A program made the position numbers and the translations under genes. A stretch of DNA of 63,439 bases, filler included, from Collodictyon triciliatum (taxonomy: Eukaryota): NCBI GenBank assembly GCA_043381765.1. It is 6 parts of 6 records of this genome, joined end to end, with 100 filler letters (N's around TTAATTAATTAA, not from the genome) between each part and the next. Parts side by side here need not be neighbours in the genome. Positions count along the whole stretch, not along the records: positions 41,196 to 54,816 come from JBHJMP010001953.1; 5 more parts are not named here. The stretch is one strand, 5' to 3'. Positions 30,615 to 55,501 of the stretch are shown here, in pieces (the first letter of the stretch is position 1; each line of letters opens with the position of its first letter). The notes beneath the pieces are model-generated. The model saw nothing but the letters and a program-made list of their open reading frames with translations, did not search any database and was not told the origin of the DNA.

Positions 30615-30768
30615 TTGCTGTGGCCTTGTGTTTGTCATGAGTGAGTTTTTCTCGTGTGATTCGGTCGTCTCTGTGTCGAGAAATGGTTGTCCTGTAGCCC
30701 CATTGCTGATGCTTTTGATGGAGCGATTTTCGGGGTGAGCAAAATTGCTTTGGAAGAAAGTCTTGCGG

Positions 30769-30776
30769 TATTTATA
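30769..30776 (-). promoter_or_regulatory. Candidate TATA box (TATAAATA) upstream of CA paralog 1
   Basis: Lies about 155 nt upstream of the ATG. Paralog 2 has TATTTAAA at about 34307-34314. Confidence 0.4.
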
Positions 30777-32941
30777 GGCTTAGGTTCCTTCTATTCGTTT
30801 CCATGATGTGGCTGGGAATGGTCTTATCCAATCCGTCTTATTCAATCGACATCATGTTGAATGTGGAGCTTCGCATCTTTTGTGGGTCGATGGGTGATCA
30901 GTTGCGGCGGCATCTTTTCCAAAGAGCGGATTTGCCCGCGTGGTTGTAGTTGTCAGGTGCGTCATCGCAGAGCATGTAAAAGAATTCGTCATTCCAGATT
31001 TGAAATTATTTTGTAATTTGCCTTTATGGGACGTCATGCTTCATGACAATTTGGCTTGTCCGCTGTTCGGGTGCACAGTGTGTTTCTAACATGGAAATTC
31101 CGTTACTCGCGGGGCTGTTGTTGTGGTTTGTCCGGGTTGCTGGGTTGCTGGGCGCAAGGCGAGGGGAAGGGCTGGTGGAGATGGGGATTTCCTTTTGTCT
31201 GTCTCGTTGGAGAGGCCTGATTGGTGGGATGGTGTGGAGTGCTTTGCTTTGTTTGCGTTGAGTTGATTTAATCGAAATGGGTGTCCTCGGGATTTGTGGT
31301 GGTTGCGCAGATGCTAAAATATCACAGGATAATCTTCTTTATCTGGGACGAAAAAAAGAAAAAAGAGCGAGCATAAAGATAAAGGACGCGATGTGTATAA
31401 TTCAGCAATATGCTTTTATCTTTATTATCGCTTTTAGTAAAGCAGCTGAATAGTTAATATGAGAAAAGTAATGGAGGAAAATGTCAGATGCAGGAAAAAT
31501 AGACTCGGGAAATTCGAGAATTGGGCTTACGTGGGAGGGAGTTTTTTTTATAAATAAATAAAAACAATTATCAACAATAAAATGCTATTGTATAAATATC
31601 TCACCATATGTAGTTTCCCATTCCTGAGATGTTTCCCTTTATATAAGTCTATTATAACATAAGAGTATGATGTCAATTTGGTTCATACAGCCTCGAATTC
31701 CGCTGAATTTATCTGTCGATATTCATCCGAACTTAGCATACATGTGATGTTGCTACCTTTTCGGTCAGCGGTTTATGTTGTTGATGGTGGTGCTATGGTA
31801 AATTACGATGCAAATCATGATAATAATGTTGTGTTAGAATCTAATTATGTCGGCATCGAGTAATCCATAAAATATATCAGTCCTCGTCTTTAAATATCAG
31901 ATTATGTGCATAAGATTTTCTCCTTTATTCGAGTTAAAGAGATTATGTGCATAAGATGATAATGTCTGGTCTGATAGATAAACAACCAGAGGAGAATCGC
32001 GTTTATGTGTCATGGCTGACTAGTCACATAATCCTCAACTTACTTACCGCTTGAGTGCACTAAGGTTGCTGGTTGTCTGTGTAATAGCTATATGTGATAA
32101 TTTATAACATGATGGATAAGTACTTTCGTCGCCCAGCACAGCGGTATATAACATGTAGTGAGATCTCAAGAAAGTCGGGCTAGCCTCAACGACAAGAACC
32201 CTATCTGGACAATTACAGGGCCTTAATCCAAATTCACCTTTGGGTGTTTTGTTAGGTTATGGCTGTGCTTTGGGTTTAGGGAATAAAAAACGATATGTAA
32301 AACATCTGAGCTGTCTGTATTTGATTTCATTACATGCTCACAGACAATTCGGACATAAAAATATAGCACTTGAGGTAGTCTTTTTCCTTGTCATGTTTTT
32401 CTATTTTGACTCCTTCAAACTCCCTACAAGATATCTAGTGCCTCGAGCAGCATTCTACAAACTACAAGAGCTCTTTCGATCAGAAGCAAATTGGCCGGCC
32501 TGTGTTCTTCGGGTGTATGTGGATCCACCCTCTAGTTTTGCGACTGAGCGATCTTCTGCAACAAGCCTGAGGGCTTCCTTTAACCAGGAAAAAAAACACG
32601 GGGCCAAACTCCTCCTCCTTATTCCGCATGGCCCGTCCCTTAGTTTCTAGTTGCAAGAAGAAAGTTACATAAAGAGGATAACGCCATGTTTATCTCACGT
32701 TGTATGTTGCCTCAGTCGTTCTCTAGGCAACTGCACCTTCGGAGCCTGTTTGTTACATCAGAGCAGATACAAGCCCAGCATTTAAACACGCGTAGAATTC
32801 CAGATAGGGAAACGAGAAGCCTGCGATGCCCGTGCCAGACAAACTCGCAGGAAGTCTCTCCGGATGTGACAGTCCCCATATATGATTTATTCCTCTGTGG
32901 AAAGGAAAGGAAGCAGTGTGAAAAGTAGGTTGTGTATGAGC

Positions 32942-34079
32942 TTAGTTGTCGTTCTCGCCGAGCTGGTCGTAGATTTCCTGGGCCAGGCGGGAGTTGAAGT
33001 GGATGATATCGGAGTGGACGGCAATGAAGCGGCGAGCAGCGTTGACGGGCTTCTTAAGCACGATCCACTGGACAATCTCTGTGCAAGGTGGGGTGGTGAA
33101 GGAGCCGTCATAGGCGTAGAACTCGTCCAGAGAGACCTCACTCAGGAGGGGCGACCAGTCGAGCGGGGCGTTGATTTCGACGGAGCCGACAGTCTTGGGA
33201 ATCTATACAGCAGGGGCGAGATAAAGTTGCTTAGAATGCAGCTGCTGCTATTGTTACTATTTCTGACACGGGGCAGCCACAGAGCCGTTGGGATAGTGTT
33301 TGTGTGCCTGAATGCCAAACAAACCTGGTAGACGAACTGGTCGAAGAAGACGTTGCGGTTCTCTCCAAAGTCGATGAGGATGCCAACGACCAGATAGCGG
33401 CCAGACTCTGACAAATGGACGCAGTGGAGCTCCAAGGGCCAGTGGCGGCCTTCGACAAGGTGCTCGCTGGGACTGTTTCGGGCGGTTCCAGATTTAGACA
33501 TCATATTACAGGGGGCGTGACATGGAGGGAAGGAGGAGGCATATGGGAGAATGAGGGAGCAGGCACACCGACTCACCCGTGGAAGTGGGCCTGGACAAAG
33601 TTGTAGCGCACGCCCATGTAGAGGACGTAGTTGTCTGCGCCGGACGGGTTGTTGATGACATCAATCTGGAAGGCGTGGCCGTTGTTGGAGACGGTGACGG
33701 GGCTGGCAAGCGGGACCCAGTTGACCACAAGCTTGTTGATGGACACGTCGGCGTCGCGGTTGACGGTGGCCGGGAATGACAGGTCGACGGGAGACTGCTT
33801 GCGTCCGTCCTTGCAGGCCGAGTAATCGGGCTGGAGGTCGCCCCAGAAGGCAGCCGAGGTGGCGCCGATGTAGGACCAGGGCGAGCCGGCCTTGCGGGCT
33901 CCATGGGGGACGCCAAAGTGCGATTCGCTGCAGAAGGGGCTGCTTTCGAGGGCGTGGCGGACAAGCGTGTTGTTGATGGCCGGGGCGTATGCGGAGGCGG
34001 CTGACAGGTTGTTGGGGCGGCTTTGGGCGAGGCCGATGACGGCCGCGAGGAAGAGTGCTGCAAGGAGGGTGCGGTTCAT
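32942..34079 (-). CDS. Secreted alpha-carbonic anhydrase, paralog 2 (3 exons, same intron positions as paralog 1)
   Basis: Same motifs (QAHFHGPSEH, ELHCVH, YDGSFTTPPCTEIVQWIV). Coding sequence is highly similar to 29475-30614. Stop is TAA at 32942. Confidence 0.93.
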
Positions 34080-36904
34080 TCGCTGTGGTGGGCTGTCTGT
34101 TTGTCCCTGTGTTTGTATCTGCGCGTGGGTTAGTAGTGTCTCTGTGGGCTGTCTGGATTCCTCGCGTCTGGTGAGTTGCTGGGGCTTTTGTGTGCCGGAT
34201 GGACTTGGTTCGCAATGCTTCTGAGTGGCTGGATGATGTTGTGATGTAATTGATGAAATGAATACACGCAGGGGGAAGGAAGAAAATCCTGCTGCTGGGT
34301 GGGGTGTTTAAATACTCGTTCGGCCGTCATATGCAGCATTTATTTTTTCTGTACAAGAGGGCTCGTGTCCTTCATACAATTAACAAAATAGGTAATCATC
34401 CTATTTAGGCACGCGCACCAATTTTCCTGCTGGTCCAGTGATTCAGTGCAGAAACATGATGCGCGCTTTTGCTTGTTCGCCGCTTGTGCTTCGGGAATTC
34501 GAGCGCGTGCCTTTAATTCTTTAATGTATATATTCGATTTGATTGAGGCGCGCGCTTGGTAATTTTATGTTCGCTATTCAGTAACAGTCGCGCGCAGAGA
34601 ATCGCTATTGGCACTGAGTTTTTCGATGAAATAAGAGCTCAGGGTGATCATAAAGAGCAATAGTATTGAAATGAGTCTAACCACCTTTGAAAAATATGTT
34701 GTGTGATTCCACCTTTCATCCGTCGCGATTCCTTGGCAAGTCCCTATACCTTTGAAATCGCTGTGGTGTGGCGTGATGAAGGGAAGTGCTTGGGACGAAC
34801 TTTATCTGTTTCTTATCCAGCATGAATTTTGCTCTGCCGTTGATGCGCGGTGTTGGGAAATAAAAAAACCCAAGGAATTGCGTGATTAAATTGTTGATAT
34901 CGACTATGAGACTGGGTTTAGTGATAATAAGTGGTGGTTTGTGGAGTGAGACGGAAATCGAACCATCAGCCTAAAGGAAAACCTGTGCCTCCTCTGTTGC
35001 TTTTGCCTAGTGTACCTCGCTGCAAACAAAGTGTTGCCGAATTACACAGTTGAACAATTTTACTTCTTCGTGGCCTCTAATGTGTCTCTGGGTGTTTTCA
35101 TAGGCAGCCCCTATCAACAGCGCTTCTGCAATGGCTAGAAGGAGAACCTTTTCTTTCAACCAAAACGCTCACAGCGTCCTGACTTATGCCAACTTTCTAT
35201 ATGGAGCCTAGTTGTGTTCCTTGTTGTCCATTCATATGGTTGCTGAGGGTGAAGGAATGGGAGGTTCGTTGGTTTCTAGCATGGCCCACGATTTGTTTCC
35301 TGTCTTGTTTCTTGCCTAACTGCCTCTCGTTCATCTCAACCGTATTGTTTTTATCATAATAAGTGACATGGAATGTTTGATTTGGTTGGAATTCCTTGTA
35401 AGCCCAATGACAAGGCACTTTGAATGCACCTAGCACGAAGGAATGGGTAAGCCTGGACTCATCGTTGGCTTTTTCCTCACACTCAGACACACAGGCAGAC
35501 ATCCTTGTGGAGAGGATATGTGGGTTTTGGTCGATACCCTGACAACCCCAAATTGCAAAGTGTTCTACTCCAAGCATACAAGCAGATACCCTCCAAAGGA
35601 ATCCCTATGAAGCATAGTAGTGCATGTAGTTGCGAGGTGTCGTCATCGCTGGCAACCTCGGAGATATGTGGGGCAGGTCGAGCTTTTTAAGATATACTCA
35701 TTTGCTCATGTCGGTTTGTTCAGTCTGTCTGTCTGTCATATGGCCCCTTCTTCCTCTTCATTACAGGGTTGCGTCATGGTCTGGCAGGACAAAGTCGATG
35801 GGGCGTCTATCCCTTGTTATATCTATCATTCACGCTCAAAAGACACTTCAAACACAATACAAATCATTTGTTCTTCTTTTCTCCTTCTTCTCCTGGTGCA
35901 TTGCCCCCGCCGTTTATTCCTGTTCTATCACTTGTTTGCAGCATCTCCTTTCTTGTCTCTGTGTGTCTACCATTTATGATTTCTTGCATGTCCCAACGTC
36001 CTTTCAACAGAACAGGCGGAGTTTTTCGCTTCCTTTTGTTATTTTTTATTTTATTTTATTTTATTTTATTTTATTTTATTTTATTTTATTTTATTTTATT
36101 TTATTTTTATTTTTATTTTTATTTTTATTTTTTTTGACGACGTTTTCGTGAGGCGTATGCTTCCACACATGCTCGGCATTGGAGAGGGAAAGCAATAAAG
36201 AAAAAAAAAATGAATGAGGTGACGAGCCAGCAGTTAAGAAGGCGAGAGACAGTGGTTATGATCGGGATCTTGTTTGTGTCCACCGATCGGGTTATTCGTC
36301 TGTTGTTTTTTAAGGGTTGATTGTGACTATTATTATTCTTATTATTATTTTTCATTATGCTCCTGNNNNNNNNNNNNNNNNNNNNNNNNNNNNNNNNNNN
36401 NNNNNNNNNNNNNNNNNNNNNNNNNNNNNNNNNNNNNNNNNNNNNNNNNNNNNNNNNNNNNNNNNNNNNNNNNNNNNNNNNNNNNNNNNNNNNNNNNNNN
36501 NNNNNNNNNNNNNNNNNNNNNNNNNNNNNNNNNNNNNNNNNNNNNNNNNNNNNNNNNNNNNNNNNNNNNNNNNNNNNNNNNNNNNNNNNNNNNNNNNNNN
36601 NNNNNNNNNNNNNNNNNNNNNNNNNNNNNNNNNNNNNNNNNNNNNNNNNNNNNNNNNNNNNNNNNNNNNNNNNNNNNNNNNNNNNNNNNNNNNNNNNNNN
36701 NNNNNNNNNNNNNNNNNNNNNNNNNNNNNNNNNNNNNNNNNNNNNNNNNNNNNNNNNNNNNNNNNNNNNNNNNNNNNNNNNNNNNNNNNNNNNNNNNNNN
36801 NNNNNNNNNNNNNNNNNNNNNNNNNNNNNNCCAATTCGCTTGAATTGAAATGAAAACTAAATAATAAGTAAATAAAAAAATACCTAAGATGGCCTTTTAT
36901 GTAG

Positions 36905-41095: not shown

Positions 41096-41210
41096 NNNNN
41101 NNNNNNNNNNNNNNNNNNNNNNNNNNNNNNNNNNNNNNNTTAATTAATTAANNNNNNNNNNNNNNNNNNNNNNNNNNNNNNNNNNNNNNNNNNNNAAACA
41201 CAAAAAACCA

Positions 41211-41353
41211 AAAAAAACCCAAAAAAACCCATAAAAACCCATAAAAACCCATAAAAACCCATAAAAACCCATAAAAACCCATAAAAACCCATAAAAACCC
41301 ATAAAAACCCATAAAAACCCATAAAAACCCATAAAAACCCATAAAAACCCATA
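41211..41353 (+). repeat. (ATAAAAACCC)n 10-mer tandem array
   Basis: About 13 copies immediately upstream of TAF7. Confidence 0.93.
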
Positions 41354-41450
41354 AGGTAAAAGGGACGGCTTAGTCATATATATATATATTTATAAAGCTC
41401 ACACGCAGGTTGTTGATCTCTTCCCTTCTGTAGATCTCTTTACGACAGGG

Positions 41451-43925
41451 ATGAATGGGCCGTTTATTATCCCTGGAGATGACCTGCACCCAGAAGACCA
41501 TGTTATATTTCAGGCGAGCTCTCAAGCATCATAAAAGTAACTCCAAGAAAAAATGAGGCCAATCATAATCTTGCATTTGAAACTGCACAGGTTCCTCCAC
41601 GGCTTGCTTCTGTCGTTCAAACGATGGTCGATGCCCAGGATTTCTCTGGGTTGACTTTTTGCATGAACGAAGATGGTGTGTTCATGAGCATGAGCATGAA
41701 AAAAGAAAAAAAAAAGAAAATCTTTTTATAATTACTAGTAATAATCTGATGAAAAAAAAAGAAGAGATTACGGTGGGATATGACGGAATTATATTTTTCA
41801 AGCAATTAAAATCATAAATAAAAAATTCATGATAATAAAATAGTATAGTGAAGGCTTTCATTTCTGTCAATATTTTATGGTGTCTAAATGAATACTTAAT
41901 CAGTCATGAAACTGATTGCAAAATGGTACTTATATGACAAATAATTAAGGTCGAACAGGGACGTGCGAAATTGCTGGGGAAACGCTTTCGATTTCACTGG
42001 TTGATTTGCCAAGATTGATTGAAACATACAAGACCGTAGATCATTTCAACGTTTACAAAAGTGCAGATATATCACAGGTAAAAATGTGCCTTTTCATCGT
42101 TCTAATACATACTTTGTTCTTGGACCGTTGTGTTTACATTTCCACTATTTAATACTCAAAGATGTTGGTTGTTCACCCTGCTGACGTTAAAGTTTCTCTT
42201 GATTATGAAAGTGGAATTACTCCTCCAACAACAAAAATCAAAGGAGCAAGCTACAGCAAATTATTATCCAAGGTATTCTCTATATATATCTTTCCTTTCA
42301 ACAAGGACTGCAAATTATTATAGAATATGTCAAAAATGATTTATACATATATATTATATTGCATTTTTACCTTCATCCATTACTCTCATACTTTCATCCC
42401 ATGTTTTCCAAAATTAATACACAGATAATTAGTTGTAATTGAACCAGAGCATACACTTACATGTTCTATGAATTTTGAAAAGTACTCCAGGGAAGATATT
42501 GAATGGGCGGAGGCAGAGGTTTTGAAGTTAATACAAGCCGGACCAAATGAAACGATTGATATCCAAAAGAGAAGAAATATTCATATATAATTTTTTTTCG
42601 TCTCCAAAAAACATTTTTACTTCATTTAATCCCATCATTCATTTTATACATAAAGAATCTAAATATTGCGCTATATAGATACTAGACAATAACTGAAAAG
42701 ATGGCGAATACATGCCTTTTTCTTTTACATTATCAAACATGGTTATACACTTTAACTTGAAAAACAAATGAGCATAGTGGACGATATTCAGCCAACTGAC
42801 ACAGCAAGAGAAAATGAAGTTTGTGTGGATGACATTTCTGAAAACGAGGGAGATAATGAAGATGACCTAATTTCCGACATATGCTCAACAGGAGACATGC
42901 AAAAAATCATGACTGAAAACGCACCTATAGAGGTATTTTGAATACTTTTTAGATGATTTTTTGACAATAAATGAGCTATGTTCCTTTCTTTTTCTTTATT
43001 TGGCATATTTATCAATTAGTCACATGAACTGATAATTTTCTCAATATAAACCTTTTGATTTGATGGAGACCTCCATTGAATATGAACACTTTTCAACAAT
43101 TCCATAAAAAACAGCTGTTGGGTTTTTTTAGAATTATTTATATGTGCCAAAGGTTATCTTCTGAAAGTATATTATATAGGTTGATGCAGAGGGGCAGCGT
43201 CCTACCGATTCTACCAATCGTCTGCTGACTGATGACCAGTCGGAGCCTACCCAAGCTGAATCGAATCTTATTAATGAAATCCTTAATCATGAGGATATCG
43301 ATGTTGTCTCCGTAGTTAGCGAAGTTGGAAACACTCAGGTGCAAAACACAAATACAGGCGAATGCGCGACACAGGAAACTATAGTGGACTTCTTTGTTGG
43401 CGCCAAGGCATCTCAAGAATTAGAAAAGCAATTAAGCGAACCAAATACAACCGAAACGCAATTTAAAGGCGATGAAGTCATGGCTGAAATCTTACCCGAC
43501 GCTCCACAAGAAGTAGTTGACCCGCGTGTCCTTGAGTTAAAGGCATCTTTGATTCCAATACAGACCGAGGTTGACGAATTAAAATCCTCCATCGATTCAT
43601 TAGAGTCTCAAATCACCACGATTAGCAACCCGATTATGAAGGTAACTATAATATTCATGCTTTTTTTAAGCAAAAATGCTTTCTTTTTTTTTTTTTAATG
43701 TTCGTTGCGCATGATAAGGCTCTAAAAATCATATAACTTACTTTTGGCTACACCAAATTATTTGCAACCTTCCGGTTTAAAATCAGATAACAAATACTAA
43801 TATATTTGATATAGAGTCGCCAACAAAAGAGACTGGAGGAGTTAAAGGGGAAACTATCCACCAAATTGGAGGAAGTTGCTGCAATAGACGCGGATATCGA
43901 TAAAATTATAAATCCGAGTGCCTAA
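41451..43925 (+). CDS. TAF7: TFIID subunit TAF7 (TAFII55)
   Basis: EDHVIFQVPP; DGRTG...LVDLPRLIETYKTVD...YKSADISQMLVV; ESGITPP; EAEVLKLI; acidic linker; C-terminal coiled coil ISNPIMKSRQQKRLEEL. The model requires one GC-AG and one AT-AC intron. The start codon is tentative. Confidence 0.88.
42559..42765 (+). other. U12-type (minor spliceosome) AT-AC intron in TAF7
   Basis: Donor G|ATATCCAAAAG, branch-point-like CACTTTAAC at 42748-42756, acceptor AAAAAC|AA about 10 nt downstream. Splicing restores ...GPNETI-E-MSIVDDIQP. Confidence 0.78.
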
Positions 43926-44333
43926 TTTTTCTGGTTTCTTTTCAACAGTTTATTGAGAGAAAACAAAGCCGAGGAAACTGCCTTCGCCTCTAGGGCAAGA
44001 AATGAGCTGTGGACGAGACAGTGGAAAACCCCGGATTGTGTGATTGGAGTTTTGTGTTTTGGGTAGAAGGAAAGAAAAAAGAAAAAAAATATAGAAAGGA
44101 GAGAAAATGTTCTCACACGCAAACTATTCTACCCGAGGCGAATCAACTTCAACGCGATTTCTGGTTGTATTCGAGACAGACAAAAGAGCGGATAAAGTTG
44201 TCGAGTCGATAAAAGTACGCACGTGGCAGGTGCTTGTCAAATCGATTCCGACGAGTCCTTTCAACCATCTATATTAGACAAGATTTACATCCTATTTCAG
44301 TCCACAGGATGAGTCTTTTGGGGAGACAACGGG

Positions 44334-45500
44334 TCACTTTCCCTGCGTTTCTTGCTGGGCGACTCTGACAAAAAGTGATACAGTTGTTTGTCTGGAATTA
44401 TCGGAAGTGGCGCTTGACCGTCCCCTGGCATCGGGACCATGCGTAGCCAGCGGTGGACTTTGCTTAACAGGAGTATGGATACGCGTTTGTGGTTTTAGAA
44501 ACATACGCTCCTGCTTGCTCGGACTGTCTTTGGTGTGTGAAGTTCCAAGCTTGGATTCGACTTGTGCTGTTTGCTCTTGCTCCTTGGTTCTCGGTGCGAC
44601 GGGCTGGAGCTGGATAAACGGACTATCTTTGGTGGGCGCTGGTTCTTGTGTTGCCTTCGCTTTGGAGTTTCCTTTCGGATAAGTAACGAAGACTGCCTTG
44701 TTGCTTCCTATGTTAACCATATTCACGTCAGTCTGAATGGGTAGTTTAAGGGGGGATTTCTCTCATGGTTTGGAGATGCACTGCTCTTGGGTCTTGCGAT
44801 GTACGGGCTTGTCCGGCGTTGGCGGTGGAGGGCTCGAGTGCGAGGATTCTGAAGAGGAACCAAGATTTCCTTCCATGTCATCGTCGCTGTCGCTGTATGC
44901 GCGTATCTTCTGTGAGTCTTGCAGATTCTGTTGTTGCCTGGCCTTGGCTTCCTTGACTCCGTTGCTGCTTGTCTGCTTGGCAGGTGTATTCTTTTGCGGG
45001 GCTTTTACTTGTCGTTCATTGTTCGCGGCTGGCGGACGCTCTTTGAGGATGTGCTTTGGACACTTTTTACCCATGACCGTAAACTTTGCAGGGAGCTGGT
45101 TCTTATGACAAAGAAGCTTCACCACGGCCGTGTCTGTGAAGAAGCCTCTGTTCTTTTTAATCTCCACGTGGGTCGGTCTGAACGGCTTCAGCTTCTCGCG
45201 AAGTTGCGGCCACACGTCCAGCGGTAGTTGTTAGAGCATTACCGAGGTCTCTGTTGGTTTACTTCTGCTGAAGCTGATTGTAATATCGATCAAACTTACC
45301 TGCTTCAGCTTCAGAAGCTTTCGGGCGTTCTCTGCAGTGCGGAAGGCGATCAGGCAAAGGCCTTCGCTGTCTGGTAAGCGCAATTGGATGGACTCTTCCC
45401 AAAGTTTGTTTGCTCTCAAGAAGGAGGCGAGCGCATCTGTGAGCCTGCGGGTCTTGTTCTTGTTGTAGACTTCTTGCTCGACACTATAAAAGAATTCATT
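44334..45500 (-). pseudogene. Intronless reading frame with RRM-like N-terminus and low-complexity tail, interrupted by two in-frame stops; possibly a decayed non-LTR retrotransposon ORF1
   Basis: ORFs 45419-45231, 45215-44763 and 44726-44334 share one frame, broken by TAA (45231-33) and TGA (44763-65). The segment EGLCLIAFRTAENARKLL resembles RRM RNP1 plus helix. No ORF2/RT was seen. Confidence 0.5.
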
Positions 45501-46368
45501 CTGCCAAAATTAAAGGCGCAAAAACCAGTGAGTCTAAGCTGTCTTGTTCCCATTAACTAGCCACACGATAGTGTTCTTTGCTTTCAACTATGCAGAAATT
45601 ATTTCTTGTATCCACCACCTTACAGAAAGGAACAAATAAGGGCGACCTCACCACACAAGACCTTTTTGCATGTAATAAAGTGTACATGTAATGCCCCGCC
45701 GAACACTTCAAGAAAAGCTCATGCTTTAGGGTCTTGGTCGAGTCTAACTCTGAGCACAATATGTTTGAGAGGCATTATCGAATCGGCTGGAATATTGCTT
45801 CTTAATCTGTAAGCAGTCGTATTCCAATGTTCACACACACCGCGGCCCATGCACAGCGACAGAATCAATCACACCCGCGTCATTACTTGGACTCTCCCGT
45901 GCTCTTTTTTGCAGGGTGGATGAATAATAAGCAAAAACACACGTCCTGACCTTTCTCACAAGAAACAAAAAAAAAGACAGGATGCGCACAAATGCAACAG
46001 CCTGCTTCATCTTACAAGTCCATGAAACCTACACCGTTTCCTTGGCATCCACAAGCAGCAAACCTGAATCGGCAAAACGTGCTCGATATGGTGTGGCGAA
46101 ATTCCTGTGTCCTCTAATCCAAAAATTAAGATATATAAGTATATATTAACACACCATTTTGAGTGTATGAAGATACAACACCTATAATGCATTTAATTAA
46201 AGGATATATAGTATTTTCCATATATAGATTTACTGATTCTGGAATACATGTCTACCAAAACGCCATCCTCTTTGTATGCGGTTGTCATTTCATGCTTCTG
46301 TCATAGTCGTAACCACAGGAGACACAAACAGAGTCAGACAAACCCACCTCCAAACACGCAAAGGCCGT

Positions 46369-49300
46369 ATGTCGTTCTTCAACTTGGTCCGTAAAGCAGT
46401 CTCTGGGGATCGCCGCCGCTTCAGAGAAGGGGACTTTGACCTGGACCTTTCCTACGTCACGGATCGACTAGTTGGTTTGTGCTTCCTCGTCTTCCTTGGC
46501 GCCTGTGTTGTTGACGGGATGTATAATAAGGCCATTTGATTTCAGCCCATTTTATTGTTATTGTTATTGTTAATATTTATGTTGATGTTGGTATTGATAT
46601 AAATGTTGATATTGATGTTAATATTGATGTTGATGGTGATGTTGATGGTGATATTGTTGATGTTGATGGTGATATTGTTGATGTTGATGGTGATATTGTT
46701 GATGTTGATATTGATGTTGATATTGATATTAATGTGAGTGTTATCATTAGCATTTTTTTAACAATATGCTATGAAAAACACATTTTTTTTCGTCCTCGAA
46801 GCGATGGGCTTTCCAGGATCAGGTTTAGAGGGAACTTATCGCAACAACATCGACAGCGTGTCCCGATTTCTGAATGCGCGCCACGGTTCCAACTACATGG
46901 TTTTCAATCTGTCGGATCGATCATACGATTATTCAAACTTCAATCATCAGGTGCAGCTTAAAAATCATCACCCAGAGTGTAGAAAGTTGTTGGGCTGTGC
47001 TATTTGGTGTTTACCTTCATGAATGACCTAGGTTGTCGAGTGCGGATTCTTGGACCATCATCCTCCTCCCCTGAAAATGCTCTTTGAGATATGCCACAGG
47101 ATACACATATGGCTCTCCATAGACTCTGAGCATGTCGCTGTCGTGCATTGTTTAGTAATAATGACTTATTCAGAAAACGAATACCATGTACTGGAATCAA
47201 TATCCAAGTTTCAGATGAATACCAGCTATGGTCTGCATCTTTTCTGAAAAAAAAATATATGTTCAACAGGCTGGAAAAGGGCGCACAGGAATCGTAATTT
47301 CATCTTACTTGTTCTATGCTGGATTCAGTAACAGCATCTGGCAAGGATTGTTTCATTTTGCCGTACAAAGGTCTGAAACAGAAGAGGGCGTGACTATGCC
47401 CTCCCAAATCAGGTTTTGTTACAACCTCTCTCTCCTTTCTTTATTTCACATTAAAGCGCCAAAAGCAATCAATCCCATAGAATTGAAAGCAACGTTTCTT
47501 TACTCTTTGTAGTTGATTGCTAAAGTTCTTGTGCTTTTCCCAGTTTCTGAAAGCATGTAATTTGTCGCTACATAGGTATGCGTTTTTATTTAGTGAAGTC
47601 ATATCAGGAGCCCTCAAAATTCACCCTAGGCCGATGATTTTGAAGGTATATACGATTAATTATTGATGGTTTATTTATTCATATTTCATTCGAAAGAAAT
47701 AGACATTTTAACATTATGATAGAAATTAGATAAATATATTCATTCTAATTCGACGTATTTTCATATAAATTCTCTTGTATAAACAAAATTTGAAAAAAAA
47801 AGGAAATTGTGATGAAAGGCTCTTTTATGCCGCGTTTTGAAAGGGTTGGATTTTGCCCTCTGCTATTTATTTATTCTGGGCGAAAACTGATTCATTCTTC
47901 CGCGTGGAGAAATGGAGAACAAATGTATTCATCAAAACACACAAGATTACCCATCATTCATTGAATCCATATGGATAATATACTTTAAATTGTCAATAGG
48001 ATACCTTTATCATTTTTTCTATTGCATCTAGGCCGTATGTGACTCAGACCCCAGGACAACAATTCGTGCATCCGTGTCGGTGTCTTGTATTTGGAGACAT
48101 AACTGTACACATGTATCATGAGCCAGTATCATCATTACCTTTACCTCTTCGTAAACACAAAACTATTGCATTTCGATGCACATTGCATACGTCCTTTCTT
48201 GAACAATCTGCCGTGCAGTTCGACGAAGTTCCTGGTATTGAACTTCCTTAACATATATTTGATAGTCTCTCACAATTATCTTTTAATATTTCTGCATAAA
48301 GGGCTGATCGTTTCTCTCCCCTATAACGAAGGCAAAATAAAATACAAGATAAGGAATCACCTTAATTGTTGTTTCAACTTGAAGTAATATTGTTGATATT
48401 TATTTTCAGAAAATCTGAAGGCTCCAGCGATGACGAAGCGAAGGTCTTTATCGAACGCAGCAGGAATTCGAGATATTGTTTCGAGTGCTTATGATTTAGA
48501 TGGACCGAGTTTTGCAGAAAACACAAGACCAAAAACATTGGAAGATGAGATGGGTAAATCAAAATGTGGCGTTGGTAACTTTGCAGACTTTTCAGCTGCA
48601 AATAAGTACCTTAATTTAAAGCCGTCATTCCGAAATTCTGTCAGTCTTTCAAATTCAACGACACATATTGGATGGAAAGAGGTTCGTGTGCAGCTTCTCA
48701 AAGACGATTTAGACGGACCACATCTGGACAATCAAAAGTTTTTTTTTTCACTTTTTAAATGAAGAATCTTGAAAGAACAAATTCAATGTCACATTCATAG
48801 TTATGGAAAAGAGAGCTCTATTAAAAATAACTGTTTTAATTCAAAATTTATTTATATCATCGCAGTGTTCGATTTGCAGAAGATTTTGCTGTTGAATTCG
48901 TTTTTGATTGTCCAATGTCCTCCATCATCGATCAGAAAAGTCCAGAGCCTGCCACTGAAGCGATGGTTCGACGTAGAGATAGAGAACTCGAACCGTCCAT
49001 CACAATCGACCATCATTTCAAGAATATCGTAAGAAGTCATATATTGATTTGTTCTAATTACTAAAATTTGAGTACTCTGGTAGAATCCCGCTTTTCATAA
49101 TAAATTGGAGAGCAATATCATAGCAGGCGGTCATCATGACTTGTATTGATGGCATCTAATGCAGCTCCCATTTTTTTAACCAATGAATGTAGCCTCTGCA
49201 AAATCACATTGACGATATATCCAAATTCTGGAGCCGGTCAGAAAATCTCTTCATAGAGGCATTAAATCTCCCTGTCCCGATGGTCTCTGCATCCTTGCGG

Positions 49301-49816
49301 ATGTCTCAATTTGTCCCTGATGAGTATCTACAGAATTATGGAGACACTACAGAACCAATTATCATATCATCCCGAACAATCTCACAGGCCCATCCACCAA
49401 TTCGCTCGACATGGAAATCATCCAAGGCCAATTCCCATGCTCACGTTCTGCCAACACGAAAATTCACTCCCGATGAGACAACAGGCTCGGGTACTAACCT
49501 CAGTCAAAGTGCACCGCAAAATTATTTAGAGGAAGAAATCCAGCTTGAAGAACAGAGCCACTCTTCTGCTGCTGCACATGAACCTGTTGGTGATGCTGAG
49601 CTGGACACGCCAGCAAACAAAAGTAATCAATGCAGTAATTTCCAGTGCCAGAATACCATACTTCATCTACTCGAGAGGATGCAGTTACTTCAGATGGAAA
49701 ATGAACGTCTTCGAAATCTGCTGGGCCAGCAGAAAGAAACTCCCTCAAGTTTGGAGCCAAAGCAAAACGAAGCCACATCCAGGCGTGTGCGCAGCTATAG
49801 TTACGGTCGTTCATGA
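46369..49816 (+). CDS. PTEN: PTEN-like phosphoinositide phosphatase (phosphatase + C2 + tail)
   Basis: VRKAVSGDRRRFREGDFDLDLSYVTDRLVAMGFP, EGTYRNNI, FLDHHPPPL, HCLAGKGRTG, GVTMPSQIRY. C2 motifs VFGDI..FRCTLHTSFL..KDDLD..RFAEDFAVEFVF. Confidence 0.92.
46553..46732 (+). repeat. Degenerate (GTTGAT)n repeat in PTEN intron 1
   Basis: Imperfect GTT/GAT/ATT triplet array. Confidence 0.85.
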
Positions 49817-50338
49817 AAAATTGCATGTATATCGTGAATCCTCTCTACTTTTTTTTCTCGGTTATATACCTATGCACATTAGCGGAACGTTTTTTGCTTT
49901 TTGTTTTTTTTGATTTCATTTTTCCTTTTCCTTTTTTCTTTTCATTTTTTTTAAAACACTCTCAACCCTTATTAAACAACCAACTCCGCACATCCCACTT
50001 TCCTTCTCTTACCATCTCGTGCCGCTGACATGCAACGCAAGCAGAGAAGTTTGAATGAAATCAGGAAATCCCTCTGTAGCATCCATGAAAAGTCTACCTT
50101 TTTGGTTGTCTGTTTGCGTTGCCGCACATATAAATAGTTTGACAGATTGTTGTAATTTGGCACTGGAATTCCTCCTACTTGCACACTTCATTTTATTCTA
50201 TTTTCCCGTCAAAAGCATTCAACCGCGCACTTTCTCATTGTCACTGCAGTGATTATATATTTCTGGTGAACCAGAGACAATCTTGCTTCCGCTGCTGCTT
50301 GCTTCGCTTTGAAGTCCTTTGTTTTGCAGTCCTTCACA

Positions 50339-53300
50339 ATGTGGAAGCGGATCGCGCTGGGGCTCGGACTCGGATCAGGACTCGCGCTCGGACTCTTCCA
50401 CGGGACTTACGCCTTGGCAGGCGAAAACGACAGTTCTCTCCATGAGAGCCCGGTTCTGTCCGAGTGTGTTTGGCGATATCGAAACACGGTGCGGACTCTG
50501 CGTGGATTACAAGCGGTAATCAATGATATGTTTATTTCTCTGCCACAACAGTCTCCCGTCGAATGTCTCCTATGATTTTCGTTTTTAAATGCGCGTTGAT
50601 GGGGATGAAGTGATTCAGATATATAAGTTGGCTGAAAGTTGCACGCATATAGTGTTCTCTAGTTTACTTGGATTACACCTACTCACTTCGAGGATTGGAT
50701 GAAAAAACAAAAGAATACAACGAGGCAAAAGAAAAGGTTTTTCTTCCACTGTTATTTGCATTGCATTAGTTGAACCACACATATTTTGTTTTGTATTTTG
50801 GACATGTGTACTATATAATTACCATCAAGTGCTGCACTTTATTGAAAAGGTGCATGCGCGCTCAGCCGAAAGGATATACAATCTCTGCATTTTGAATTCT
50901 GGATTATACATAAAAGGTTTCTATTAAATATAACTACAAAGAGCTCCAATACTTACAAAACAACTGTAATTTTTCTTTTCAGAACTCACGTTCTACCAAA
51001 GAAATTATTTGTCTCTTTCCTTTCTTTTCATTTTGATGAATTAACATTTGAATGCAGAATTAATCTAACAAGGATGACATGTCTTAAGCCGGACAGTATT
51101 TAGGGTCGCTGATGGGCATACTACCGCGCGAGTATCATAATAGACTTCGCATGCTTCAGGACAAGGTGAACGCTTGCTTTCCTAGGATTAAAAAATTAAG
51201 TGAGATGATTAGGTTTTTTTTTTATTCTTTTTATAATGCCCTATTTTAACAAAGAGGTATGATTTTATAGGCGCCAACATCATCATGGGGGTTGATTAGC
51301 AAATCCATGGAAGAGTCATTTGGGCGTAATTTTGAAGAAAAGTAATTCACAATCACAAAAGAAACATGCCTAATCAACTCATTTGATTATTCAATATTGA
51401 ATGGACTACTATGCTTTCATAGATTCTTACTCATTGATAAGGAAGCGATTGCATCGGGAACATTGGCTCAGGTTTGTCGGGCAGTTGTATTTACATATAT
51501 AATCTTAATTTTTCATAATTATCGATGTCATTGAATGTGCTGATTATACAACCATCATTTCAATAGGTTCATCGGGCTACATTGCGTCAAGGAGCCGAGG
51601 TTGCTGTCAAGGTTTTGAATATTTGTCCATAAACTTTTTCAAAATAACTATTTGGATATATTTTACCTCAAAAACTAACACATATTTAGATACAGCACCC
51701 TGGTCTAAAATCTACAATCGCATTTGATTTTCTTTTCTTGGAGTTTGTAGTCAATATTATTAGATGGGTTCGTTTTATTCCTATCAAAATAATTACATCA
51801 GAATAATCAAACGAGTTAACCCTCTTATAAAACAATTCATTTTTTAAATTTTATTCAGAAAAATGAAGACATCGACCTTACAAACGTTTTGCTCGAATAC
51901 AAAAAGTCCATATCACAAGAAATAGGTTTTTTTAAATATTTTTAAAAATAAAAAACAATTAGAGGTTCCACATTGATTCTTATTTATAACAGACTTCAAT
52001 CAAGAATTGGCCAACATGACCGAGGCCAGAACACTGATGAAGGATATTCCATTCATCGTAATACCAGCAGCATATAAGGTATGCAGCAGAAATCTCTCAC
52101 ATATATTTTCATGCCCTTTGCCCACAGGGTCATGAAAACTCTAACGAATTAAGGAATTGTGTTCTTCAAGCATCATTACGATGGATTTTGTTGATGGTGT
52201 CAAATACTCTGATAAAGAGGCAATTACATCAAATGGAATAGACTATAAAAAGGTTTCTTTATTTTATAAGAATATCAACAATGTGGAAACCTGAATTATC
52301 GATGCATATATTCATCAGCTGGAGTGAAAATGACGAATCGCATTATTATTATTTTTTTAGGTTGTGATGCGGCTGTACGATTTCATATCCCACCAGGTAA
52401 CATGAGATATCAATATTTCTATGAGAATTTCAATATTAGAACGAAGAAATCGTGACAAGCTCTTGGCTGAACCCTTCATGATATCCTTCACCAAAGATGT
52501 TTGTGGATGGCTTCGTGCATTGCGACCCCCATCCAGGAAACATTCTTGTCAGAAGAAATCCTGATAAGGCATCGTTTCTCAAATTGACGTAGCTTTTATG
52601 AATGAATCCATGAAGAGAAATATGCAAAATTTTAAATCTTTTCCTTCATCTTTTATTGTTGAAGTTAATCACATACCCACCCAACAACTTTTGATCAGCA
52701 AGATGACGTTCAACTCATCATACTCGACCATGGGCTGTATCACCGGTTTGATATCGAGTTCAGGTGACATTAATCGCCTATTTCCCTCACTTTGTGTTTG
52801 TGTATTATATTTATTAATGTGCGAAACGCACTAGGAGGGACCTTTGTCAGCTATGGATGGACTTGGTTTCTTATTTGAAAGAATCGAGAAGCATTTAAAA
52901 GAATATCTGGTGCATAATTAGAGACTTTATTTTAGTTTTGTTTTCAAGGTCGTCAATATGTTCTAGGTATCTGGTCAAATCAGGGGCAGCACAAGGTTTT
53001 TCGAAAAGTATGGGATACCTTTCCAGGAGAAGATAATCGCAAGTGTGATTTTAAAGGATGTTTGGACATTGGGGTAATCATTCAGCAGATGGTATTACTG
53101 AAACATTTATATGTTCTCGAGAGATAGCATTCATCACTTTGATATTTATTTCGCCTTAAGAAAGGAGAAAGTGCGGTCGACATTGCAGCTGAAGACGAGC
53201 TCCGAGAGTAAAAGACCCAGCGAACTGGTCTCTCTGGTAATTGACGTAAAAAAATCATTAATATTATATACCCGGCGTAGTTACACATATTTTGCATTTT

Positions 53301-53781
53301 TATACTAATAACTTTGAATATCAAATTTGTACAAGAAGACTGTTTTTTTTTTCTTTTGGAGGTGAACATTGAGTATATCCATGACACCAGTTGATTATCC
53401 TTTCTATCATCACAAAGTTACGCGCCGAAGGAATAAAATGGTTTCAGGATTTTCATCGAATTCCAGAAAGCCTTTTTTACTTTATTAAAATTGAGTATAA
53501 CTTCCTTACAAATGCAAAAAGAAGTGTACCATGTAATTTTACAATAAAATAGACCTTCTTGTTCATAAGCACAAACCATTGTACCATTTCATCAAAGAAT
53601 AACCGAATACATGTCCATAGAAATCTGCTCTATCTTTCCATACCAAAAGATGAGCGCTACTTGAATAGACGGTCAGTTCCTCCTATTACGCTGCAATCCA
53701 GAAAAATGTTTTCTTACTTTTGAATATGTTAGGGTTCTAGTATTCACAAAAAATGCATGGAGAGGAATCCATAAAGAATGA
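50339..53781 (+). CDS. ADCK1: ABC1/UbiB/AarF-family atypical kinase, ADCK1/5-like
   Basis: NSGLYIKAGQ, LQDKAP, AIASGTLAQVHRATL, VAVKIQHP, EIDFNQE, ITMDFVDG, GFVHCDPHPGNILV, ILDHGLY. About 16 exons. The N-terminus resembles a mitochondrial targeting peptide. Confidence 0.88.
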
Positions 53782-54399
53782 GATAGGTGCAAACAGAGGA
53801 TAAAACACAATCAAGTGTTCAGACGTTACACTCTGACATAGTCAGAAAATAAAGTCTTCACATGTTGTATGCCTTATCAAAGCGCCTGTTTTGCTCGTGT
53901 GTTGTCTTCTTTATACTTAAATAACAGGCTGTTGTGCTGTATCATTTATCGCAACACTGTAAGCATTCGACTTGCGATTTTCTCCAATGTTGAGATGTCT
54001 TCAGTTCTTTTTCTATTGTCTATTGTTAAGCCAGAGTATTGTGGGGACAATGCAACCATTTCTCCGTCAACCACAGCCTTTCTTTAAAAAGGAATCATCG
54101 GGTGCCTCCCAAAACGAGTGTATTCGGGATATTTCTGACTCATTTCGCTGCGGAATACGTTCATTCCATAAAAACGCCTGTTTCATCTTGGCAGTCTGGT
54201 TGGGTGCATTGTTAACAGCTGGGTCATCCAAAAAATACAGTGTTGTTTGAAAAATAGAGCTGACGTTTTTTTTTTACAACCTCATTAGACGGCGATTGGC
54301 AGATCATATAAAACTTGCTTCACATATACACACAAGAGGTGAAAAGACACAGACCACAGGAATAGGGCCTTTCATGGTTTCTGGACACCAATTAACGAC

Positions 54400-54587
54400 C
54401 TATATCATACCATTTATTTCATTTGGAAGAGAGGCATGGTCTATAAAGTCACAGGCAACCATATAAAGCCATGGAAAGATGTGCAAAACAATGCTGTGCA
54501 CCAGAAACATTCTATGCCCTTTTGGAATATGCGGAGTGTGACTTCGCTCGGTCTCTTTCGTGACTCACGCCTTTCAACTCTAATATC
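54400..54587 (-). CDS. Possible terminal exon of a gene truncated by the scaffold end
   Basis: A CAG acceptor at 54588-54590 is followed by open frames of 25-60 codons. The upstream repeat is T-rich on this strand, as in other introns. No motif recognised. Confidence 0.25.
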
Positions 54588-55501
54588 CTGATAATAATAA
54601 AAGCTAAAATTAATATGAAACCATTTCGTTTCCTCCCTTCAATCAGTGCTGGATTTGGTTGTAAGCTTGAGAAATAAGACCATCTGTCTCAAAAATCATG
54701 AATGGTGAGTGAAATGTGGTACGAAAAAGAAAAGAAAAAAGAAAAGAAAAAAGAAAAGAAAAAAGAAAAGAAAAAAGAAAAGAAAAAAAGAAAAGAAAAA
54801 AAAAAAGAAAAAAAAANNNNNNNNNNNNNNNNNNNNNNNNNNNNNNNNNNNNNNNNNNNNTTAATTAATTAANNNNNNNNNNNNNNNNNNNNNNNNNNNN
54901 NNNNNNNNNNNNNNNNGAAAAAAAAAAAAAAAAAACAAACAATTTTTTTTTTTTTTTTTCAATTTTTTAAAAAAAAAAAAAAAAAAAAAAAAGGAGTAGC
55001 AGTGCATGATTCAAGGGTTTCTTAACACCAAAGGACTTGACATCTATGAAGAGGTAGAAAAAGGTTTATAAAAGAGGAAACGTTGTTTTTTCAGTATTTT
55101 TTTTTAAAAAAAAAATGAAGCGATTCTTATATCTTGTGTCTTGTCTGATCTTATGGATTAAGTAACATCCATCTCCAAGTACCAAAGGTCAGAGCTTGCA
55201 TAAACAAAATTTTTCGAATTTAAAAGAACGAATCTTAGACAAAATAAAATGATATCAATATTAACAAAAATAGGACCCGTTTCAATTGATTGAATATGAA
55301 AAGGTGAATATCAAATTATTATTTCTTAAGTGGACATTTTTGAATAAAAATAAATGAATTCAAATTTAAAAAAAAGGGGGATAGTTCAGCAATATTTAAA
55401 AGCTTCAAATGGATGTATTGCAGAGAAGTGACATAGAAGCATAAAAGAGCATGAGCTAACAAAATGTAGAGAGACTCTTTATTTTATTGCATCATCAGTG
55501 C

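What the first reader, a model, noticed from the sequence alone, without database searches (positions are those of the whole stretch)
42559..42765. Minor-spliceosome AT-AC intron in TAF7 with a non-consensus donor (ATATCCAA)
Seen: the TAF7 exon ...AEAEVLKLIQAGPNETI runs into a stop and has no GT/GC donor in the phase needed for the next acidic exon. Cutting at G|ATATCCAAAAG and AAAAAC|AAATG restores ...NETI-E-MSIVDDIQP, with a CTTTAAC branch-point motif about 10 nt upstream of the AC. Known: U12-type introns have a near-invariant RTATCCTT donor, a TCCTTAAC-like branch point close to the 3' site and often AT-AC ends, and many protist lineages have lost the minor spliceosome. Inference: this organism retains a minor spliceosome, and the AA at +7/+8 may reflect divergent U11/U6atac pairing. 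It is the only AT-AC intron I found among the introns I traced.
Basis: partly seen in the sequence, partly recalled or inferred. Interest (0 to 1): 0.82.

Follow-up and report, generated by a model that had tools for sequence, protein, structure and literature searches.

The report
RNA-confirmed AT-AC intron in protist TAF7
A 207-base intron in the TAF7 gene of a freshwater protist is cut out exactly at AT...AC ends and carries the signals of the rare minor (U12-type) splicing system, so it is a real but fairly ordinary example in a lineage where minor splicing has apparently not been reported.

Summary
Contigs from two metatranscriptome RNA runs of two studies join 42558 to 42766 and skip 207 nt with AT..AC ends. 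The spliced gene reads as a 400-aa TAF7.

At this RNA-defined intron the donor is ATATCC. A CTTTAAC branch motif has its A residues 10-11 nt before the AC. By window frequencies each feature has a chance of about 0.4%.

A third cDNA run holds a contig that keeps this intron while both neighbouring GT-AG introns are removed. That is typical of slowly spliced minor introns.

The best reading is a U12-type AT-AC intron (about 0.85). The main rival is a U2-type AT-AC intron (about 0.1).

Not shown:
- Any minor snRNA or minor-spliceosome protein. No genome is held, and the 63-kb window has none.
- Any link between AAA at +7 to +9 and altered U11/U6atac. This rests on one intron.

The nearest TAF7 relative is a Diphylleia rotans (CRuMs) transcript at 54% identity. 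The scan had noted U12 AT-AC introns before only in human genes.

Verdict: a new member of a known kind, of modest interest.

The parts
41451..43925 (+). TAF7 coding region: 8 exons, 7 introns, 400 aa
   Evidence: Model built from the RNA joints and translated. Pfam TAFII55_N on exon 41949-42077. The N-terminal 125 aa are 53.6% identical to a Diphylleia rotans TAF7 transcript.
42483..42558 (+). TAF7 exon 5 (..YSREDIEWAEAEVLKLIQAGPNETI + G), upstream of the AT-AC intron
   Evidence: Contig pieces 42480-42558 in X3 record 13 and X4 record 16, with 0 other letters. Frame.
42559..42765 (+). AT-AC intron: 207 nt, phase 1, 25% GC. It is intron 5 of 7.
   Evidence: Joint 42558->42766 in RNA contigs of X3 and X4. 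The intron is retained in X1 record 1. Phase and GC. It is single-copy in the window, and the printed ends show no terminal repeats.
42559..42567 (+). 5' splice site ATATCCAAA: U12-type core ATATCC, then AAA where the consensus has TTT
   Evidence: Sequence. Consensus [G/A]TATCCTT as quoted in the abstract of 10.1101/2020.10.12.336362.
42750..42756 (+). Branch-point motif CTTTAAC, with A residues at 42754 and 42755, 11 and 10 nt before the last intron base
   Evidence: Sequence. The same heptamer lies in the branch region printed for a U12-type intron of Monodelphis RNF121 (Table 1 of PMC7367187). The published optimum distance is 11-13 nt (PMC3584512).
42764..42765 (+). 3' splice site AC, the first AC downstream of the branch motif
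42766..42932 (+). TAF7 exon 6 (acidic; AA completes the split codon GAA, then MSIVDD...)
   Evidence: Contig pieces 42766-42913 (X3) and 42766-42897 (X4). Translation.
41514..41590 (+). Probable GC-AG intron, 77 nt, phase 0
   Evidence: X2 joint 41510->41588, 'both 4' and 'between: not known'. A cut 3 nt to the right gives GC..AG and joins ..EDHVIFQ to VPPRLA.., which matches the Diphylleia protein.
41676..41949 (+). GT-AG intron, 274 nt, phase 1
   Evidence: X3 record 12 has pieces 41651-41674 and 41949-42075. Only 24 letters lie on one side, so this is weaker support. Frame.
42078..42161 (+). GT-AG intron, 84 nt
   Evidence: Joint seen in X1, X2 and X3.
42273..42482 (+). GT-AG intron, 210 nt
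   Evidence: Joint seen in X1, X2 and X3.
42933..43179 (+). GT-AG intron, 247 nt
   Evidence: Joint seen in X1.
43642..43814 (+). GT-AG intron, 173 nt
   Evidence: Joint seen in X1 and X2.

Best explanation
Window 42559-42765 is a genuine 207-nt intron of a protist TAF7 gene. It is removed precisely at G|ATATCC...AAAAAC|AA, and it is most likely a U12-type (minor-spliceosome) intron of the AT-AC subtype.

Shown:
- The exact junction in RNA.
- The restored 400-aa TAF7 frame.
- The ATATCC donor core.
- The CTTTAAC branch motif 10-11 nt from the 3' end.
- A partly spliced cDNA contig that keeps only this intron.

Inferred from established knowledge of U12 splicing (review PMC3584512):
- A U11/U12 di-snRNP recognises the donor and the branch site together.
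- A U11-48K-like protein reads +1 to +3, and U11 and later U6atac pair from +4 on. Here that pairing could cover only TCC, because +7 to +9 are AAA.
- The first AC 10-11 nt downstream is used as the 3' site.
- Removal is slower than for the neighbouring GT-AG introns.

The retained form reads into a stop and would give a 164-aa product ending just after the TAFII55_N domain.

It follows that the organism should possess a minor spliceosome. The organism is probably a relative of Diphylleia, in the CRuMs group.
For: -: the AT..AC joint 42558->42766 is in RNA contigs of two runs from two studies (X3 depth 21.8, X4 depth 3.5), and both contigs are identical to the window in the flanking pieces. 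The X3 contig also has the upstream GT-AG intron spliced out.
- X1 record 1 (901 nt) covers 42480-42930 unbroken while introns 42273-42482 and 42933-43179 are removed. This run is cDNA: a loose end reads like a template-switch oligo (my recollection of that oligo), and GT-AG introns are spliced out in its contigs.
- the splice restores a 400-aa TAF7; the junction region aligns without a gap to a nematode TAF7 (P0129), so no micro-exon is missing.
- at an RNA-defined AT..AC intron, ATCC at +3 to +6 has a chance of 0.42%, and a YYTTRAC 8-15 nt before the end has a chance of 0.37%.
- the intron is in phase 1. Minor introns are biased away from phase 0.
- the seven GY-AG introns traced here start GCGAGC, GTGTGT, GTAAAA, GTATTC, GTATTT, GTAACT and GTAAGT. 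None has TATCC.
- Literature: 353 U12-type against 24 U2-type AT-AC introns in five species, and 0 AT-AC among 94,072 C. elegans introns (PMC1557818 Table 1). Table 1 of PMC7367187 shows accepted U12-type introns with A at +7 (rice GTATCCATCA) and with CTTTAAC in the branch region (Monodelphis RNF121). The optimum branch-to-3' distance is 11-13 nt, either A can be the branch, and minor-intron genes are enriched in information-processing functions such as transcription (PMC3584512).
Against: - Positions +7 to +9 are AAA instead of the consensus TTT. With human-like U11 and U6atac, pairing beyond +6 would be lost.
- No minor snRNA or minor-specific protein of this organism could be looked for. 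No genome is held, and the window has no snRNA hit at the gathering score or at E<=1.
- It is the only such intron found. The 7 RTATCCTT sites in the window are what chance predicts (about 7 by my arithmetic from the counts), and the two candidates I read in sequence are not donors: the perfect ATATCCTTT at 46207(-) lies inside what I read as an ordinary intron, and a GTATCCAAG at 59864(-) reads as coding.
- The branch motif discriminates poorly here. U2-type introns of this organism also lack a polypyrimidine tract and carry CTAAT/TTTAAT-like motifs 9-17 nt from the 3' end (also TCTTAAC before a GT-AG acceptor at about 59400).
- Retention rests on one contig of a slightly different strain or species: 6 other letters and 1 insertion in 451 nt.
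- No orthologous genomic locus was available to test conservation of the intron.
Confidence: 0.85

Rival explanations
1. It is a U2-type ('type II') AT-AC intron. An ordinary major-spliceosome intron would have changed its first G to A and its last G to C, and its resemblance to a U12 donor would be accidental.
For: - Such introns exist: 24 in five species, with SCN4A and SCN5A shown experimentally (PMC1557818).
- U2 donors in this gene include GTATTC and GTATTT, only two or three changes away from ATATCC.
- G at -1 fits U1 pairing.
- +7 to +9 (AAA) do not fit U11/U6atac.
- The branch motif and the missing pyrimidine tract are shared with local U2-type introns.
- The presence of a minor spliceosome is unproven.
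Against: - Type II introns are defined by a good U2-type 5' site apart from +1. Here only -1, +2 and +3 could pair with U1 (my own pairing count, from the recalled U1 5' end).
- C at both +5 and +6 is seen in 0 of 7 local GY-AG donors.
- An exact ATATCC has a chance of 0.42%.
- Type II introns are about 15 times rarer than U12-type AT-AC introns, and none was found in C. elegans, which lacks the minor system.
- Selective retention of this intron in X1 fits slow minor splicing better.
Confidence: 0.1
2. The junction is not made by splicing in the cell. It would be a reverse-transcriptase template switch, an assembly chimera in the contigs, or a deleted DNA copy.
For: - The runs were available only as contigs, not as raw reads.
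- Whether the joined form also stands in DNA runs was not given (table 5b).
- X3 and X4 are environmental samples.
Against: - The identical junction occurs in two libraries of two studies.
- Only 1 nt of shared sequence lies at the joint, whereas template switching needs longer direct repeats.
- The X3 contig also splices the upstream GT-AG intron.
- The frame is restored.
- The ends fall exactly on ATATCC and 10 nt after CTTTAAC.
Confidence: 0.02

Closest known systems
U12-type (minor-spliceosome) introns of the AT-AC subtype, as catalogued by SpliceRack, U12DB and intronIC/IAOD
   Same: AT-AC termini, an ATATCC donor core, a branch motif one wobble-compatible C-to-T change from CCTTAAC, branch A 10-11 nt from the 3' site, no polypyrimidine tract, phase 1, a host gene in transcription, and incomplete removal in a partly spliced transcript.
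   Different: +7 to +9 are AAA instead of TTT. The machinery was not demonstrated. The intron lies in a protist whose nearest sampled relative is Diphylleia (CRuMs). I found no report of minor splicing for that group (the 2 hits judged irrelevant by title and abstract; no mention in the main text of PMC10639083).
Physarum polycephalum minor introns (Larue, Elias and Roy; bioRxiv 10.1101/2020.10.12.336362)
   Same: This is a protist minor-intron system with non-canonical signals. Its branch motif (TTTGA) sits 9-12 nt from the 3' site, and the U12 snRNA has co-evolved with it.
   Different: In Physarum the donor stays [G/A]TATC[C/T]TTT and the branch motif changed. Here the branch motif is near-canonical and the donor tail differs. 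Physarum has more than 20,000 such introns, whereas here there is one. Nothing shows a shifted consensus or changed snRNAs.
U2-type AT-AC (type II) introns, for example human SCN4A and SCN5A
   Same: AT-AC termini, and G at -1.
   Different: Type II introns match the U2 donor consensus after +1. This one has TATCC at +2 to +6, the U12 hallmark.

Membership tests
U12-type intron (AT-AC subtype) | Terminal dinucleotides AT...AC, defined by RNA | tested here: met
   Joint 42558->42766 'AT..AC' in contigs of X3 and X4. A 1-nt shift (TA..CA) fits the data equally well but matches no known intron class.
U12-type intron (AT-AC subtype) | Conserved donor core RTATCC at +1 to +6 | tested here: met
   ATATCC at 42559-42564. 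The chance of ATCC after AT is 0.42%. It is found in 0 of 7 local GY-AG donors.
U12-type intron (AT-AC subtype) | Extended donor consensus TT(T) at +7, +8 (+9), which pairs with U11 and U6atac | tested here: not met
   AAA at 42565-42567. A at +7 does occur in an accepted U12-type intron (rice GTATCCATCA, PMC7367187 Table 1). I did not see frequencies for AA at +7/+8.
U12-type intron (AT-AC subtype) | Branch-point sequence like TTCCTTRAC, close to the 3' splice site (optimum 11-13 nt) | tested here: met
   CTTTAAC at 42750-42756, with A residues 11 and 10 nt before 42765. The chance is 0.37%. The same heptamer lies in the branch region printed for a U12-type RNF121 intron. The distance rule is from PMC3584512. 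Caveat: local U2-type introns have similar near-3' motifs.
U12-type intron (AT-AC subtype) | No polypyrimidine tract | tested here: inconclusive
   No tract lies upstream of 42765, but the GT-AG introns of this gene lack one too. The feature therefore does not discriminate here.
U12-type intron (AT-AC subtype) | Minor snRNAs (U11, U12, U4atac, U6atac) and minor-specific proteins present in the genome | not testable with these tools
   No whole genome is held. The 63-kb window has no Rfam hit at the gathering score, and its only hit at E<=1 is a chance sRNA match. This says nothing about the rest of the genome.
U12-type intron (AT-AC subtype) | Splicing depends on the minor and not the major spliceosome | not testable with these tools
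   This needs snRNA blocking or depletion, or in vitro splicing.
U12-type intron (AT-AC subtype) | Intron position and type conserved in orthologues (supportive, not defining) | not tested
   No genomic TAF7 locus of a relative could be fetched: two metagenome scans found none. The Diphylleia transcript P0121 stops before this position. A TAF7 + 'U12-type' literature search gave 2 papers, of which 1 was listed, on retroviral Gag interactions, irrelevant by its title and abstract.
U2-type AT-AC (type II) intron | [quoted passage not shown] | tested here: inconclusive
   TTG|ATATCC shares -1 G, +2 T and +3 A (and T at +4 with 3 of 7 local donors), but it has CC at +5/+6, seen in 0 of 7. A sample of seven is too small for a species-specific score, and the SpliceRack score threshold of 75 could not be computed.

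The most novel reading that the evidence does not exclude
This intron would be the first sign of a working minor spliceosome in Diphyllatea/CRuMs, the sister group of Amorphea. Its 5' splice-site rule would be shortened or shifted (ATATCC followed by A-rich +7 to +9) and matched by changed 5' ends of U11 and U6atac. That would be a donor-side counterpart of the branch-site/U12 co-evolution described in Physarum.
Probability: 0.1. Interest if true: 0.6.

Novelty: new member of a known kind. Interest (0 to 1): 0.35.

Why it matters
[quoted passage not shown] A survey of more than 3,000 genomes found them in 64% of genera (PMC10639083).

An RNA-verified AT-AC intron with U12 signals adds a data point for a deep-branching, barely sampled protist lineage. 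That lineage is probably diphyllatean (CRuMs). The main text of that survey does not mention the group, and my searches found no report of minor splicing for it (the 2 hits judged irrelevant by title and abstract).

There is also a practical point. Annotation pipelines that allow only GY-AG introns would truncate or mis-splice this TAF7. The same problem was described for Physarum.

The unusual AAA at +7 to +9 is worth a genome-wide look. As a single case it proves nothing about altered snRNAs.

Tried and rejected
- Whole-genome search for U6atac: no genome is held.
- Rfam on the window: nothing at the gathering score. At E<=1 there is only a chance IS128 match.
- Protein word searches found nothing with the acidic exon 43180-43641 or with the TAFII55_N exon.
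- Metagenome-contig scans found nothing with the acidic exon or with the Diphylleia protein P0121. No orthologous locus was therefore obtained.
- The exhaustive HMMER search with the 43-aa exon gave only 10 proteins at E<=0.001, mostly short fragments. Only P0129 reaches past the junction.
- Pfam does not detect exons 41483-41680, 42162-42272, 42429-42557 or 42768-42929 on their own.
- A BEACH-domain search for lineage gave at most 59% identity to a mix of fungi, animals, amoebozoans and other protists, so it gives no placement.
- A permissive motif-plus-open-frame scan for more U12 introns gave 207 combinations, which is uninformative. The candidate at 59864(-) reads as coding, and the one at 46207(-) lies inside what I read as an ordinary intron.
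- A transposon-like origin of the intron was rejected. It is single-copy in the window, and the printed ends show no terminal inverted repeat and no flanking duplication.
- The contig-end repeats, such as (AAAAACCCAT)n, were considered as telomeres and rejected. Nearly every contig end carries its own, different simple repeat or A/T-rich run; one end (60964) has none.
- Runs X1 and X2 show no spliced AT-AC form. With contigs this is not evidence of absence.
- Earlier notes of the scan: none for this genome. There were only human U12 introns elsewhere, and they did not change my reading.
Full report
**What the window is.**
The 63,439-base window is AT-rich eukaryotic DNA, 26-52% GC per 2-kb window and mostly 30-45%. 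It is not one molecule. It consists of six contigs joined by N44-TTAATTAATTAA-N44 linkers at 13638-13737, 27360-27459, 41096-41195, 54817-54916 and 60965-61064. Nearly every contig end falls in a simple repeat or A/T-rich run. Only 41196-54816 is physically linked to the finding. No whole genome is held for the window.

**The gene.**
Exon 41949-42077 matches Pfam TAFII55_N (E 3.7e-11). I built an 8-exon, 400-aa TAF7 from the RNA joints. It starts at ATG 41451 and stops at 43923-43925. Its seven introns are:
- 41514-41590: probably GC-AG, from an X2 joint whose cut is ambiguous by 4 nt.
- 41676-41949: GT-AG, with only 24 letters of support on one side.
- 42078-42161: GT-AG.
- 42273-42482: GT-AG.
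- 42559-42765: AT-AC.
- 42933-43179: GT-AG.
- 43642-43814: GT-AG.

**Check of the observation.**
Read through, the exon stops after ...NETIDIQKRRNIHI, giving a 164-aa product.

The decisive test was RNA.
- One search for public runs found four holders, and I laid all four on 41400-46500.
- The joint 42558->42766 ('skips 207, AT..AC') stands in one contig of X3 (depth 21.8) and one contig of X4 (depth 3.5). These are metatranscriptome libraries of two different studies.
- Each contig has 79 letters on the shorter side and 0 differences from the window in the flanking pieces.
- The X3 contig also has the upstream GT-AG intron removed.
- The joint could lie 1 nt further right (TA..CA), but only AT..AC matches a known intron class.
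- X1 and X2 have no contig with the joint.

**Partial splicing.**
X1 record 1 (901 nt) has pieces 42160-42269, 42480-42930 and 43178-43433. The AT-AC intron is kept while both flanking GT-AG introns are removed. X1 is labelled 'RNA?'. It behaves as cDNA, because GT-AG introns are spliced out in its contigs and a loose end reads like a template-switch oligo (my recollection of that oligo). X1 is a slightly different strain or species: 6 other letters and 1 insertion in 451 nt here, and 11 in 256 nt in the next exon. Retention in a single contig is therefore suggestive only.

**Is it more than chance?**
The motifs alone are weak evidence.
- ATATCC occurs 47 times, RTATCC 63 times and ATATCCAA 10 times on the two strands.
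- The 7 RTATCCTT sites are what 63 x 0.11 predicts (my arithmetic on the counts).
- Motif-only scanning gives 8 ATATCC...YYTTRAC...AC combinations from 5 donors. A permissive scan gives 207.
- Frame restoration alone is weak too: 49 donor/acceptor pairs restore the frame on paper, 39 AT-AC and 10 GY-AG.

The RNA contigs run unbroken over 42480-42558 and from 42766, so none of those alternatives is used there.

Conditioned on the RNA-defined ends, the picture changes. ATCC follows AT at 0.42% of sites, and a YYTTRAC with its A 8-15 nt upstream precedes 0.37% of positions. Both together are about 1.6e-5 if independent (my product).

**U12-type or U2-type?**
Several points favour U12-type.
- The six most conserved donor positions match.
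- The branch motif differs from CCTTAAC by one C-to-T change that would still allow a G-U pair with U12 (my inference from the recalled U12 box).
- Its two A residues lie 10 and 11 nt from the 3' end. The published optimum is 11-13 nt, and either A can serve as the branch (PMC3584512, passages).
- The intron is in phase 1.
- TAF7 belongs to the 'information processing' genes in which minor introns are enriched.
- The seven GY-AG donors traced here are GCGAGC, GTGTGT, GTAAAA, GTATTC, GTATTT, GTAACT and GTAAGT. The last is from a BEACH-gene junction chosen by homology. None has TATCC.
- Base rates point the same way. SpliceRack counted 353 U12-type against 24 U2-type AT-AC introns in five species, and none among 94,072 introns of C. 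elegans, which lacks the minor system (PMC1557818, passages and Table 1).
- Table 1 of the intronIC paper shows accepted U12-type introns with A at +7 (rice GTATCCATCA) and with the same CTTTAAC in the branch region (Monodelphis RNF121) (PMC7367187, passages).

Several points count against it or are neutral.
- +7 to +9 are AAA where the consensus is TTT.
- The local U2-type introns also lack pyrimidine tracts and have TTTAAT or TACTAAT-like motifs 9-17 nt from the 3' end. A GT-AG intron near 59400 even has TCTTAAC 11 nt upstream. The branch motif therefore discriminates less here than in animals.
- No second U12 candidate stands up. The two I read in sequence fail: the perfect ATATCCTTT at 46207(-) lies inside what I read as an ordinary intron, and a GTATCCAAG at 59864(-) reads as coding.

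I put the U12 reading at about 0.85, a U2-type AT-AC intron at about 0.1, and an artefact at about 0.02.

**What could not be tested.**
The minor snRNAs and minor-specific proteins could not be examined. No genome is held. The window has no Rfam hit at the gathering score and only a chance sRNA hit at E<=1. The co-evolution idea (AA at +7/+8 matched by changed U11/U6atac) has a precedent in Physarum, where the branch motif and the U12 snRNA changed together (bioRxiv 10.1101/2020.10.12.336362, abstract and Results part 1). Here it rests on one intron.

Conservation of the intron in orthologues also could not be tested. Two metagenome scans found no related locus. The only close protein, P0121, stops before the junction. 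At the protein level, the spliced product aligns across the junction with a nematode TAF7 (P0129) without a gap (25.9% identity over 201 columns). This argues against a missed micro-exon.

**Lineage.**
An exhaustive HMMER search of 1.84 billion representatives with the 43-aa TAFII55_N exon gave 10 proteins at E<=0.001. The best, P0121 (E 2.8e-10), carries the EukProt label Diphylleia rotans. It is 67/125 (53.6%) identical to the spliced N-terminus. The next listed hit (P0122, no aligned stretch reported) has E 4.8e-06, and the next with an aligned stretch (P0123) has E 3.1e-05.

BEACH-domain hits are at most 59% identical and taxonomically mixed. The RNA holders X3 and X4 are freshwater metatranscriptomes. 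The organism is therefore probably a freshwater relative of Diphylleia (Diphyllatea, CRuMs). This rests on one gene, so I give it about 0.5-0.6.

**Comparison with what is known, and novelty.**
This works like, and most probably is, an AT-AC U12-type intron. The defining dependence on the minor spliceosome is untested.

Minor introns were found in 64% of 1,844 genera surveyed (PMC10639083, section 'Minor intron diversity', part 1). Finding one in another protist is therefore expected.

The searches for a report in this lineage were:
- CRuMs + U12-type: 0 papers.
- Diphylleia + U12: 0 papers.
- Collodictyon + spliceosome: 2 papers, irrelevant by title and abstract.
- The main text of PMC10639083 has no mention of Diphylleia, Collodictyon, CRuMs or Mantamonas.
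- TAF7 + U12-type: 2 papers, of which 1 was listed, irrelevant by its title and abstract.

Earlier notes of this scan concern only human U12 introns.

**Verdict.**
It is a new member of a known kind. Interest is modest (0.35). The one open lead is the A-rich donor tail.

Noticed in passing
13638-13737, 27360-27459, 41096-41195, 54817-54916, 60965-61064: The window is a chain of six contigs joined by N44-TTAATTAATTAA-N44 linkers. Four of the pieces are about 13.6 kb long. Nearly every contig end is a different simple repeat or A/T-rich run, for example (AAAAACCCAT)15 at 41203-41354 and (TTGGGTATTTTA)n up to 13637; one end (60964) has none. These are assembly breakpoints, not telomeres. Genes in different pieces are not shown to be neighbours.
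   Followed up: yes
43950-45500 (ORFs 44334-44762 and 44763-45230 on the - strand): Directly 3' of TAF7 lies a sequence covered by hundreds of cDNA contigs in X1 and X2. They are 90-99% identical to the window, summed depths run into the thousands, and many variants and irregular joints appear. It looks like a highly expressed multi-copy family or mobile element. The one ORF scanned, 44763-45230 (-), has no Pfam match; ORF 44334-44762 (-) was not scanned.
   Followed up: partly
41514-41590: The first TAF7 intron appears to be GC-AG (CAG|GCGAGC...CACAG|GTT, 77 nt). This comes from an X2 joint whose cut is ambiguous by 4 nt. The spliced peptide ..EDHVIFQ/VPPRLA.. matches the Diphylleia TAF7.
   Followed up: partly
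P0121 (EukProt Diphylleia rotans transcript), compared with window 42272/42273: The Diphylleia TAF7 transcript ORF ends ...AQLLSK-VRIDS, exactly where the window gene has its GT-AG intron after ...KLLSK. This suggests a shared intron position that is retained in that transcript assembly.
   Followed up: no
29475-30779 and 33142-34307, - strand: Two paralogous alpha-type carbonic anhydrase genes lie in one contig. Pfam Carb_anhydrase matched the one ORF scanned, 30090-30779 (-). Their exon ends are near-identical (..YMGVRYNFVQAHFHG), and the regions are GC-richer (45-52%).
   Followed up: no
9386-13400, - strand: A TRIM-like gene: a RING-like motif and two B-box-like cysteine motifs (read by eye in the ORFs), followed by NHL repeats (Pfam NHL, E 3e-23). 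This architecture is best known from animals.
   Followed up: no
18773-26081, - strand: A large BEACH-WD40 (neurobeachin-like) gene with very long exons. The junction 20617..20352 is a GT-AG intron with a GTAAGT donor, chosen by homology.
   Followed up: partly
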